Source: Octopus sinensis
Lineage: Eukaryota
Direction of reading: 5' to 3'
Assembly: GCF_006345805.1 (NCBI RefSeq)
Contig: NC_043007.1
Coordinates: 45,632,001-45,696,000 of the forward strand
Length of the DNA: 64,000 nucleotides
Within the stretch, counting starts at the first letter, position 1, and every line of letters begins with the position of its first letter. The translations under genes and the position numbers were made by a program. Below the pieces are notes generated by a model, which had not been told where the DNA came from, ran no database searches, and worked only from the letters and a program-made list of their open reading frames with translations. Below, piece by piece: positions 9,489 to 62,160 of the stretch.

Positions 9489-12226
9489 TATATTTGACTT
9501 TTGCTTTATGTCTGTACAAGTTGGCTCCAAGTCTCACCCAGAGACCTCAAGTGACAACAGGTTGGAAGTTCACGTTGTTGTTATGCCTAGTGTGCCATAT
9601 ATTTGGGTTTTTTTTTGGTGTTGTACTAGTGAATGTCTAATACATGAATTTAAAAAAAAAAAGAATTTTGATTTAAACCTTGGGATTACATAGAGAGTAT
9701 TTTGCGTAGGATATGAGCAGTTCCCATGAGCACTATCTTTTGACTTTCTGCCATTTTGGGGTTTCCTGGTGTCTGAGTTAGGTAGCAATCAGCCCCTTTC
9801 GCTATCATTCCCATGGCACCTATGACAACAGGTATTGTTTTAGTCTTCAGATTCTACATTTTGCTGATTTCTATTTCAAGATCTTTATATTTGCTCAGTT
9901 TTTGGTAGGTTTTGACAGATACGTTTATATCAATTGGGACAGTCATATCAATGAGGAGGCATGTTCTTTGTCTGAAGTCTTTCAATAAGATGTCTGGCCT
10001 ATTTGTATATAGGTCCCAACTTTTTGTGTCTGCGAATATATTCCTTCTTAGCCAGGACTGGGCTATATATCTTTCTGTCAGTTTGAATGGTGAAGTTCCA
10101 GAGGAGTGAGATGTGGTCATTTTCAAGCACTGGCGGTGGATTGTGTTCCCACCAGTTTTTTTTCTGGGGCAAATCCAGGTTTTTGCAAATTACCCAGTGA
10201 ATATATTGTGCAGCTCTATCATGCTTGTTGAGGTACTCTGTAGGCGCTAGAAGACTGCATTTGGAGACAACTTGATCAATGGTTTCATTTTGTTGTTGAC
10301 ATACACGACATGTTGGGCTACTGCCGTTCTTTAATATGTTGGCTTGGTAGTTTCTTGTTGGTCGGCATTGATCTTGAGCTGCTATGATAAACCCTTCTGT
10401 TTCAAATTTTAAGCCAGAGGCCATTAGCCATTGATGGGTCAGGGCTTTGTCAATATCTGCATTATTTGCTCTCTTAGGGTATTTGCCATAGAGAGGTTTT
10501 TCTTGCCATTTATTTTTCAGAATATCTAAGGCCGCAGTTTTTGCACGGGTTTTCATGCGCCTAGCTTTTTCTGTGCTTGTTTCTTGTATGTCTATCTCTA
10601 ATTCCGAAATGTGTTGTATTCGGAAGTCACTTAGATGTTCCTTTGCCTGTTTTGTTACTGAGTATGATGCTTTCTTGTTATCATGTTTTGAGACAAGTTT
10701 TAACATCCAGTCCTCAGACTTTTTCAGGTAGGTGTCTAGGCCAATTGTAGCAATCTTCATTGTTATTGCCAGTTGCAAAAGACCACGGCCTCCCTATTTT
10801 CTTGGCAGATAAAGTCGTTCTGTATCTGCATTAGGGTGGTGCATTCTATGCATTGTCAACAGTTTTCTTATTTTTCTGTGGAGCTGACATATTTCAGTAA
10901 TTGACCAGTTAACGATATTGAAACTGTAAGTCACGACTGGTATGGCTAGTGCATTGATCGGTTCGATCCTGTTTCTTGCATTCAGCTCTGTCTTGAGTAT
11001 TGCTCTCACTCTTCGATAACATTCTCTCCTGATCCTTTCCTTCATCTCTGAATGCCTTATTCCGTTCCCTTCAATTACCCCTAGGTACTTGTAGCTCTCC
11101 GCTGGGTCTAGTTCTTTTATGACATTCTGTTGGTCAAGGTTAACGTTAGATGTTTCTGTCATTTTTTCTTTGATAAAGGTAGCTTTTGCACACTTATCGA
11201 GGCCGAATTGCATTCTGATGTCGTCACTGAATTGTTTGACTATCGCTAGTAAGCTTTAAATCATCCATGTAAATGAGATGATTTATATTTTTATTAAACA
11301 TTTTATACCCGTACTGCGCGTCATTGAGCAGTTTTGAGAGAGGTATTAAGGCTAAACAAAAGAGGAGAGTGGTGACAGTGAGTCACCCTGGAAAATGCCA
11401 CACGAAATTTTTACATCACCAGCATTTAGGGATTCGTTGTCACTGTTCAGAGTTAGTGTGGTTCTCCATGATCTCATACTTACAGTCAAAAAGTTTTGCA
11501 GAGTAGGTGCTACCTTATACATTCCCAGGCATTTCCTAATCCAGCTATGTGGTAGGCTATCAAAAGCCTTTTTATAGTCTATCCAGGCTATTGATAAGTT
11601 TTTGTGTCGTTTGTGACAATCTTCTAAGATCATCTTATTGAGGAGTAGTTGATCTTTACAGCCGTAGGATCCACGTTTACATCCTTTCTGTTCATTAGGG
11701 AATATGCTGCTGTGTGTTAAAAAACTATAGGTATATTCCGTCAGGACATATGTTAGCGTTTTATACATAGTTGTTAAGCAGGTTATGGGTCTATAGTTTT
11801 TTGGTTCATTTGTTTCTTCACTTTTTGGAAGCAGGAATGTTAACCCATTAACTAGCCAAGGAGTTCTGTACAGTTCGGTTAGCAGTTCATGGCTCTCTGG
11901 GAAGGCATTCAGCCAGAAGTTAGGAATTTTATCCTTTCTTGGAAACTTCCATTTGCTTGACATCCTGAGAGCAGATCTTATATCTTCTACCTTGACACCC
12001 TCCCACCTTTGCTCTTCTAAGGGGTCCAGTTCTGTAGATATTCTATCAATCTTTTCGTTGTGTGTTTTTTCTTCTGCCCAAATTTTATTCCAAAATCCCC
12101 GCACTTCTTCTTTTGATGGTACAGACCTTGCAGTAAACGCTGTTTTTCCTATCTTCCTGTAAAAATTCTTGGGGTTATTTTTGAACATGTTGTTATCCTT
12201 GAAAAATCTAACACGCTTTTCATACC
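9488..12226 (-). mobile_element. 5'-truncated, frameshifted R4/Dong-like non-LTR retrotransposon (RT + CCHC + restriction-like endonuclease)
   Basis: Successive minus ORFs give NYRPITCL, EQKGC, WIDYKKAFDS, GIFQGDSLSPL, MQFGLDKC, YKYLG, CRVC..ETID...C, RPDI..IDMTVP..KYKDL. ~300-bp 3' UTR followed by (TAA)n; (TTA)n at both junctions. Confidence 0.92.
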
Positions 12227-12285
<59 letters not shown>

Positions 12286-12288
12286 GTT

Positions 12289-12396
12289 GAGTGAGAGGGC
12301 AGTGCATGCCATCAAAGTGACACTGGGGTAAAATATACGAAGCCCAATATACCCATCATGACTACCCGTCTGATAAGGGTACACCAGGCACATGCA

Positions 12397-60984: not shown

Positions 60985-61305
60985 ATACTTTTACTTCGTG
61001 TTTCAGCCATTAGATTGTGGCCATGCTGGGGCACCGTCTTCATGAACTTTAGTCGAACGAATCGACCCAGTACTTATTATTTTAAAACCTGGTTCTTATT
61101 CTATTGGTAGTTTTGCCGAACCGCTAAGTTACGGGGACATTTTCATACAATTATCGTTTGTTAAGCGGTGTTGGGAGGCAAACAGAGACATCACATAAAG
61201 AAACACATACACAGAAATACGGCGAATTCTTTCAGGTTTTCTTCCAAATCCACTCAAGCATTTGGTCGACGTGAAACTATGGAAACAAAACATTTACCGA
61301 AGGTG
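60985..61305 (-). mobile_element. SINE family B, degenerate
   Basis: GGCCATGCTGGGGCACCG...GCCGAACCGCTAAGTTACGGGGAC. Confidence 0.75.
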
Positions 61306-61496
61306 TCATACCTTCTTCTTCTTCTTCTTCTTCTTCTTCTTCTTCTTCTTCTTCTTCTTCTTCTTCTTCTTGTTTGCATAACAATCACTATATATATATA
61401 TATATATAAAATATTATTCGAGACAAAACCACTATTTTGCAAAACAAACGAGGAAAGACTTAATACATAAATTTTAATAAATAGTCAAAAAAACCG

Positions 61497-61539
61497 CCAC
61501 TACAATCGTTTCCTGTCTTGATCGACAATCTTCAGGTGG
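61497..61539 (-). ncRNA. Minimal type-I hammerhead ribozyme (inverted arm)
   Basis: Reverse complement of 61611-61653. Confidence 0.8.
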
Positions 61540-61610
61540 ACTTCCAATAATTCAGTGTCAAATTAAGAAGTCTTATTGACTTCATAATTTGACACTGAAT
61601 TATTGGAAGT

Positions 61611-61653
61611 CCACCTGAAGATTGTCGATCAAGACAGGAAACGATTGTAGTGG
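61611..61653 (+). ncRNA. Minimal type-I hammerhead ribozyme
   Basis: CCAC-CTGAAGA-TTGTC(GATCAA)GACAG-GAAA-C(GATT)G-TA-GTGG. Full core, stems I and II, GUA cleavage triplet. Confidence 0.82.
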
Positions 61654-61822
61654 CGGTTTTTTTGACTATTTATTAAAATTTATGTATTGATTAAGTCTTT
61701 CCTCGTTTGTTTTGCAAAATAGTGGTTTTGTCTCGAATAATATTTTATAATATTTTACTATAAAATCGATTTAATCCTAAATCTGATTTTTCCCTGTAAA
61801 TTTGGATTTATTCCCTAATATT

Positions 61823-61859
<37 letters not shown>

Positions 61860-61903
61860 TATATATGTATATATATATGTATATATATATATATATAATA
61901 TAT

Positions 61904-61982
<79 letters not shown>

Positions 61983-61990
<8 letters not shown>

Positions 61991-62160
61991 ATTTCGGAAT
62001 GGTCATTTTGCTAGTTTAGTCAATAAGAACACACGCACTATATATTTCGTGTTACTTCGCTTCAGTGTTATTGGCTAAACTGGCAAAATGATCATTCCGA
62101 AATACAACAATGTCTGTTTCAACACACGATTTCACGTAAAAAATATTGCACAACAAATAT
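61983..62160 (+). mobile_element. Small fold-back element in (TA)n
   Basis: ATTGTTGTATTTCGGAATGGTCATTTTGCTAGTTTAGTCAATAA versus TTATTGGCTAAACTGGCAAAATGATCATTCCGAAATACAACAAT, plus a one-sided extension. Confidence 0.7.

What the first reader, a model, noticed from the sequence alone, without database searches (positions are those of the whole stretch)
61405..61827. Young ~345-bp palindrome with a hammerhead on each arm
Seen: arms almost identical, each with a complete hammerhead core on opposite strands, a one-sided extension and (TA)n flanks. Transcription in either direction gives one sense ribozyme plus its perfect antisense. Cleavage would therefore compete with long hairpin formation depending on direction. 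The asymmetry fits PLE 5'-inversion during integration better than MITE TIRs (inference).
Basis: partly seen in the sequence, partly recalled or inferred. Interest (0 to 1): 0.75.

Follow-up and report, generated by a model that had tools for sequence, protein, structure and literature searches.

The report
Spliced Penelope leader inserted head-to-head
This mirror-image DNA is two copies of the spliced front end of a Penelope-type jumping gene, one of a large family of such stubs in this genome. It was likely made by copying the element's messenger RNA from both ends of a DNA cut, which bears on an open question of how these elements insert, and its ribozyme is predicted to be masked.

Summary
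The palindrome and both hammerhead motifs are real. Each arm is the spliced 5' leader of an autonomous Hydra-type Penelope-like element (PLE): a 23-nt exon 1 joined to the hammerhead exon, where parent copies carry a ~1.8-kb GT-AG intron. The genome has 480 exact spliced-junction and 1,188 intron-retaining hits. Of 74 pairs, 73 have one short and one long arm, and arms share rare variants. The likely mechanism is two cDNAs from one sense RNA source, joined by microhomology. This argues against the published antisense self-priming idea (PMC3846280) for this family. In both directions the antisense arm is transcribed first and the hairpin is favoured by 84 kcal/mol, so direction-dependent cleavage is not supported. 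Inverted pLTR plus tail is known PLE anatomy; my searches found no report of spliced copies. This scan noted similar cases before, including in this genome (e1-9957499).

The parts
61389..61407 (.). (TA)n target, left flank
   Evidence: sequence; all 30 top-hit loci show TA runs at the tail end
61405..61572 (-). short arm: spliced leader copy ending at the inner end site
61497..61539 (-). minimal type I hammerhead motif of the short arm
61549..61571 (-). exon 1 (23 nt) of the short arm; splice junction at 61549/61548
   Evidence: mirror of 61579-61601
61573..61577 (.). 5-nt filler at the apex; each arm starts with a G that the parent lacks (parent has C)
61578..61826 (+). long arm: spliced leader copy ending at the outer end site
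61579..61601 (+). exon 1 (23 nt), starting at the A of an initiator-like TCACTTC (likely transcription start, inferred)
   Evidence: the parent reads GT directly after this exon; arm starts pile up here
61601..61602 (+). exon-exon junction; the ~1.8-kb intron of the parent is absent
   Evidence: loose ends at 61602 in other runs match the intron end
61611..61653 (+). minimal type I hammerhead motif; predicted cut after 61649
61750..61826 (+). tail (~75 nt) between the inner and outer end sites, with a conserved predicted hairpin
61824..61984 (.). (TA)n target, right flank
   Evidence: sequence

Best explanation
The palindrome is two head-to-head copies of the spliced 5' leader of an autonomous Penelope-like retrotransposon, likely made as two separate cDNAs from one sense RNA source during a single insertion into a TA repeat. 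Shown: an intron present in parent copies is missing at a GT-AG junction; one arm ends at an inner site and the other at an outer site ~75 nt further; the apex lies at one narrow position; the parent encodes a telomerase-like reverse transcriptase with Hydra-clade motifs. Inferred: the element's protein cuts both strands of (TA)n; each 3' end primes reverse transcription at one of two fixed sites on the spliced mRNA; both cDNAs run to the RNA 5' end; their ends anneal by 1-4 nt of microhomology or filler and repair completes the palindrome. The stub lacks the ORF and is likely a dead-end by-product whose hammerheads are masked in read-through RNA.
For: Splicing: donor and acceptor occur in single parent loci, L096 and L206, 1.8 kb apart; 480 spliced versus 1,188 unspliced exact hits, reversed-pattern controls 0. 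A sister family repeats this, with an ~820-nt intron in L234. Two coupled end sites: of 65 loci covering all first-100 spliced hits, 55 are short+long pairs, 1 is odd, 6 are short-only and 3 long-only; 18 further top hits are all short+long; no long+long pair. One source: G266T is on both arms in 17 loci and on one arm in 1 (about 26 discordant expected from free draws); G220A 11 versus 0; the window's A167G occurs in only 4 arms genome-wide, both arms of two loci. Two cDNAs rather than fold-back: the short arm reaches further 5' in 19 pairs, the long arm in 25, equal in 11; mirror-image junctions recur (6 and 4 loci); 7 of 40 junctions are zero-loop perfect palindromes; short-only copies exist. 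By-product: G220A occurs in both classes, 83 spliced and 42 unspliced. Parent protein: model pLDDT 84, top fold matches telomerase RT; motifs. In vitro support from another PLE: both strands are cut and extended, two internal RT start sites define the tail, a dimer is predicted, uncleaved RNA is the main template (PMC11167929).
Against: No RNA data show the transcription start, the splicing or a cap: no holder is on record as RNA and all runs laid were contigs. The extra G is weak evidence: 27 of 41 arms have G before the start, but by inspection only about 4 cannot be supplied by the opposite arm, and 14 have another base. Later rearrangement at the palindrome centre could create one-sided truncations, and gene conversion or assembly polishing could make arms alike (44 one-arm variants argue against full homogenisation). 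In vitro, the Anolis element showed no strand difference in start-site use, which does not by itself predict strict short+long pairing. No intron-retaining copy with the window's A167G variant is in the assembly. Pfam does not recognise the parent ORF itself, and the fold search listed no GIY-YIG structure.
Confidence: 0.75

Rival explanations
1. One cDNA is primed at the outer site, runs to the RNA 5' end, folds back on itself and copies itself; the endonuclease resolves the hairpin at the inner site. The origin is still a spliced sense PLE RNA, with a different second step.
For: It explains identical arms and strict short+long pairing. Some junctions carry small snap-back-like inserts (L014, L016, L176). 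PMC8557442 ascribes the tail to endonuclease-mediated resolution.
Against: In 19 of 55 pairs the short arm holds 5' sequence that the long arm lacks, and in 3 the arms barely overlap (L128, L142, L170). Zero-loop and mirror-image junctions recur, and 6 short-only copies exist.
Confidence: 0.14
2. The stubs are a self-propagating non-autonomous family: the apex initiator drives outward transcripts that the PLE enzyme copies again.
For: Spliced arms outnumber unspliced ones about 2:1 in the young G266 lineage. The window's A167G is found only in two spliced loci.
Against: The common variants (G266T, G220A) also occur in intron-retaining copies, G220A in the ORF-bearing L093. There are 26 junction types in 40 loci. 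Upstream promoter sequence is absent from the stub.
Confidence: 0.07
3. Self-priming on an antisense template makes the head-to-head repeat, as proposed in PMC3846280.
For: It was proposed to explain head-to-head repeats and intron retention; 1,188 arms here retain the intron.
Against: An antisense RNA would not be spliced at the sense GT-AG sites, yet both arms are spliced in 35 pairs among the first 100 hits. It would need an antisense copy of an already spliced RNA.
Confidence: 0.02
4. A MITE or fold-back DNA transposon, or an assembly artefact.
For: Near-fixed size and apex, inverted arms, TA flanks.
Against: Loss of an intron, asymmetric ends, single-arm copies and an RT-encoding parent; the same ends and both splice forms appear in other runs.
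Confidence: 0.01

Closest known systems
Hydra clade of C-terminal EN+ Penelope-like elements, including Hydra-1_Obim (Craig et al. 2021, PMC8557442; read: passages, section 11, supplement hits)
   Same: DKT, CxCX5C linker, CxxC, no CCHH, hammerhead, (TA)n target; by eye the parent ORF follows the supplement's Hydra alignment blocks.
   Different: Not Hydra-1_Obim itself (different protein and hammerhead by eye). Hydra elements are generally under 3 kb; this parent spans about 7.7 kb between hammerhead exons (C11145), with a 1.8-kb intron, ~1-kb tandem units and an N-rich insert. Spliced stubs were not mentioned in the parts read.
Inverted pLTR plus one-sided tail insertions of EN+ PLEs (PMC8557442 Fig. 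2 legend; Adineta Pen2a, PMC3846280; passages read)
   Same: Head-to-head inverted copy, tail on one end, microhomology junctions, initiator-like TCACT, N-rich ORF inserts.
   Different: The tail is ~75 nt, not 30-40. The copies lack the intron, whereas PLEs are described as retaining introns. The apex is nearly fixed.
Drosophila virilis Penelope 5'-UTR intron (PMC2377424 passages; PMC4209133 parts 1-2 of 4)
   Same: Short first exon and an intron that ends just before the hammerhead.
   Different: 75-bp intron there, 1.8 kb here. The passages read report spliced RNA but no spliced genomic copies.
Minimal hammerheads of metazoan PLEs (PMC4209133)
   Same: Type I, short stem I, tiny stem III with palindromic loop; dual motifs 100-700 bp apart on opposite strands were already noted in Schistosoma.
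   Different: No G10.1-C11.1 pair (U.G here, U-A in most copies); no extra base after the core.
Poseidon of Anolis in vitro (PMC11167929, parts 1-2 of 4)
   Same: Two internal RT start sites define the tail; both strands are extended; uncleaved RNA is the template.
   Different: Different clade. That paper did not address inverted products or coupling of the two sites.
Non-LTR retrozymes (bioRxiv 10.64898/2026.07.22.740005, part 1 of 5)
   Same: Non-coding, hammerhead-bearing PLE derivatives.
   Different: Retrozymes are head-to-tail tandem repeats; this is a head-to-head pair with a splice junction.

Membership tests
EN+ Penelope-like element (parent) | telomerase-like reverse transcriptase | tested here: met
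   fold search top hits are TERT, E 9e-9; profile matches retron RT at E 0.003; RVT_1 in 4 of 50 aligned proteins, not in the ORF itself
EN+ Penelope-like element (parent) | C-terminal GIY-YIG endonuclease | tested here: inconclusive
   VYKC...YIGST at residues 669-695; Pfam GIY-YIG in 2 of 50 aligned proteins; no GIY-YIG structure among the listed fold hits
EN+ Penelope-like element (parent) | pLTR with hammerhead flanking the ORF, tail at one end, inverted copies | tested here: met
   L093/L194 have hammerhead exons on both sides of the ORF; L199 and L203 have the exon directly before the ORF
EN+ Penelope-like element (parent) | intron retained in genomic copies | tested here: met
   met by 1,188 arms; not by the 480 spliced arms, this locus included
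Hydra clade | DKT motif and CxCX5C linker | tested here: met
   DKT at 88, CTCRDKSNC at 649; 29 and 28 of 50 aligned proteins
Hydra clade | RWK motif | tested here: inconclusive
   the ORF reads RIKWK; a strict R.?WK pattern is met in 8 of 50 proteins
Hydra clade | no CCHH; CxxC and CxH near the C-terminus | tested here: met
   one cysteine in the GIY-YIG core by inspection; CYLC present; CxH absent in L197 but readable in L093
Hydra clade | (TA)n insertion preference | tested here: met
Hydra clade | phylogenetic placement with reference Hydra proteins | not tested
   reference sequences were seen only as supplement text; no tree was built
Minimal type I hammerhead | conserved core, stems I and II, palindromic loop III | tested here: met
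   core kept in five subfamilies; stem II and stem I letters change together; loop III ACGAUUGU, ACAAUUGU, ACGAUCGU (imperfect in L033)
Minimal type I hammerhead | G10.1-C11.1 pair | tested here: not met
   U.G in the window, U-A or A-U in relatives
Minimal type I hammerhead | self-cleavage | not testable with these tools
   needs an assay; the truncation hint near the cut site is inconclusive
MITE | symmetric terminal repeats derived from a DNA transposon, no RNA intermediate | tested here: not met
   asymmetric ends, intron loss, RT parent
Non-LTR retrozyme | head-to-tail tandem units, each with a hammerhead | tested here: not met
   no direct-orientation neighbour within 20 kb among the first 100 spliced hits

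The most novel reading that the evidence does not exclude
These stubs are an in vivo record that a PLE enzyme dimer copies one capped, spliced sense mRNA twice, from two hairpin-marked start sites on the two ends of a double-strand cut, and joins the cDNAs head to head. Intron retention in mobile PLEs would then reflect selection (only intron-retaining transcripts rebuild a full pLTR), not an antisense template, and splicing would act as a sink that diverts most insertions of the youngest lineage into harmless stubs.
Probability: 0.45. Interest if true: 0.7.

Novelty: new variant of a known kind. Interest (0 to 1): 0.5.

Why it matters
How PLEs build inverted ends and why they keep introns are stated open questions (PMC3846280, PMC8557442). 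Spliced head-to-head copies show that a sense, spliced RNA can be the template. The strict short+long pairing with shared rare variants gives a precise model that an existing in vitro system (PMC11167929) can test. Such stubs will also be mis-annotated as MITEs or miRNA hairpins (Rfam returned only sub-threshold miRNA-type hits over the apex). Nothing suggests a function for this one locus.

Tried and rejected
Rfam: no hammerhead hit at E<=1. The Pfam GIY-YIG search of the genome fetched 30 loci; none was the parent, two held related stubs by chance. Pfam on parent ORF pieces: no relevant family. Single-sequence PDB search: nothing. BLASTP against another PLE ORF of the genome: no similarity. 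The protein atlas gave no result. RNA runs: no RNA holder listed; contigs cannot show starts, splicing or level, so expression of the parent or of this locus is untested. Cap-derived G: suggestive only. Truncations near the predicted cut site: 7 of 24 start within a 15-nt window (P 0.013), but the window was chosen afterwards, some loci were fetched for that reason, and a T run offers microhomology, so this is inconclusive. A host gene around the locus was not identified from long ORFs. Rows left out: of the 30 top hits, 18 entered the pair count, 9 were already in the unbiased set, and 3 (L023, L024, L026) were left out; two of these lack a second arm and one has a short remnant. Literature searches that found no report of spliced PLE copies or of two-ended priming. 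Arkhipova 2003 and 2006 and Evgen'ev and Arkhipova 2005 were not read and may bear on this; supplements other than that of PMC8557442 were not seen.

Full report
Observation. The inverted repeat spans 61405-61749, with arms of 168 and 172 nt and a 5-nt spacer; the right arm continues to about 61826, and (TA)n flanks both sides. Each arm has a hammerhead core pointing away from the apex. It is the minimal type: 4-bp stem I, 5-bp stem II, 2-bp stem III. Rfam does not detect it. Five related subfamilies keep the core while stem letters change together and loop III stays palindromic or nearly so, which fits the dimer-type motifs described for PLEs (PMC4209133). The host is likely an octopus: one protein hit is named from Octopus bimaculoides, at 78% identity over 16% of the query.

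It is a family. A search with the long arm gave 1,206 candidates, of which 40 were scored. Among the 30 fetched loci most carry the inverted short arm ending at the same base, and the apex shifts by a few nucleotides. One copy (L025) had 105 extra bases at the apex of each arm. Searching with these led to larger parent copies. In the parents the first 23 nt of the arm are followed by GTAAGT, and the rest of the arm is preceded by a T-rich stretch and AG. In L096 and L206 donor and acceptor lie 1.8 kb apart. The window's arms join the two exons directly. Exact patterns give 480 spliced and 1,188 intron-retaining hits, with reversed controls at 0. A sister family shows the same split, with an intron of about 820 nt in L234. 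An RNA intermediate of sense polarity is the plain reading.

The parent. The hammerhead exon is followed about 55 nt after the tail by an ORF (L093, L199, L203). One copy has an 859-codon open frame whose first ~60 residues are not from the element. Pfam does not recognise it, but 234 relatives score at E<=1e-30. Of 50 aligned proteins, 4 match RVT_1 and 2 GIY-YIG. The model has mean pLDDT 84 and its best structural matches are telomerase RTs. DKT, CxCX5C, CxxC and the TA preference match the Hydra clade; no tree was built.

Apex. Among the first 100 listed hits of each pattern, spliced head-to-head pairs number 35, with gaps of 2-34 nt; intron-retaining pairs number 24, with gaps of 50-14,009 nt; no tail-to-tail pair occurs. 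Arm starts pile up at the A of TCACTTC; a minor class starts about 105 nt upstream at a similar motif. I infer a transcription start at which the enzyme runs off the RNA. Both arms of the window start with a G where the parent has C, as a copied cap would give; across 41 arms this is only suggestive.

Two ends, one source. In 65 loci covering all first-100 spliced hits there are 55 short+long pairs, 1 odd pair, 6 short-only and 3 long-only copies; 18 further top hits are all short+long. Five adjacent intron-retaining pairs are also short+long. Over 10,071 compared sites, 41 variants lie on both arms and 44 on one. G266T is concordant in 17 loci and discordant in 1, against about 26 expected from free draws. 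The window's A167G exists in four arms only, both arms of two loci. Either arm may reach further 5' (short 19, long 25, equal 11); in three loci the arms barely overlap; mirror-image junctions recur; and 7 of 40 junctions have no loop. These fit two cDNAs annealed at their ends better than one strand folding back, though later rearrangement of palindrome centres is not excluded. Both end sites fall between two AATATT hexamers that can pair, and the tail holds a conserved predicted hairpin. Work on the Anolis element supplies the biochemical precedent (PMC11167929). The antisense self-priming proposal (PMC3846280) does not account for spliced pairs.

By-product or element. G220A is found in 83 spliced and 42 intron-retaining arms. 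Intron-retaining G266 arms number 153, while about three quarters of sampled spliced pairs are G266. Both give roughly 2:1, which suggests repeated production from autonomous parents. The parentless A167G pair leaves a small opening for re-mobilisation.

Ribozyme idea. The antisense arm precedes the sense motif on both strands. The hairpin folds at about -284 kcal/mol, and enforcing the hammerhead costs 84.2 kcal/mol in either direction; even a single arm prefers another fold by 8 kcal/mol. No direction-dependent switch is predicted. Whether the locus is transcribed is unknown.

Verdict. The feature is real, and the overall anatomy is known PLE behaviour (PMC8557442, PMC3846280, PMC4209133). 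The spliced origin and the coupling of the two ends were not found in eight literature searches, though three older key papers were not read. Earlier unreviewed notes of this scan reached like readings on other DNA; I formed the spliced, two-cDNA reading before seeing them and do not count them as support. New variant of a known kind; interest 0.5.

Noticed in passing
window 61981-62125: A second, older imperfect palindrome (arms 76% alike) between TA runs, with a homologue beside L011.
   Followed up: no
window 60986-61215: Common dispersed repeat, 8 hits in the window and present in 45 sequences searched; SINE-like by recall only.
   Followed up: no
window 61641: A>G at hammerhead position A15.1 in contigs of two runs guessed to be RNA (26 of 372 and 12 of 133 depth, 1 and 2 contigs) against 48 of 818,531 in X16. 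A weak hint of editing that needs raw reads and DNA of the same animal.
   Followed up: no
L096 3165-6225; L091-L093: The parent's 3' region holds ~1-kb tandem units, each with another copy of exon 1 and its donor, so several promoters or donors may feed one acceptor.
   Followed up: partly
L197 ORF residues 455-559: Asparagine-rich, low-confidence stretch between the RT and the endonuclease region, like the N-rich inserts of Adineta elements (PMC3846280).
   Followed up: no
L025, L063-L069: Minor spliced class that starts about 105 nt further upstream at a similar motif, likely a second transcription start.
   Followed up: partly
L094 2172-4107: A whole palindrome duplicated in tandem, about 950 bp apart, 99.4% identical.
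   Followed up: no
L186: Spliced short arm followed by three direct partial units that include the ORF start.
   Followed up: no
L241, L005, L166, L180, L242, L202: Several truncated arms start within about 10 nt of the predicted hammerhead cut, one possibly at it; inconclusive.
   Followed up: partly
window 10002-12311 (minus strand): Broken ORF pieces that look like a non-LTR retrotransposon RT by eye.
   Followed up: no
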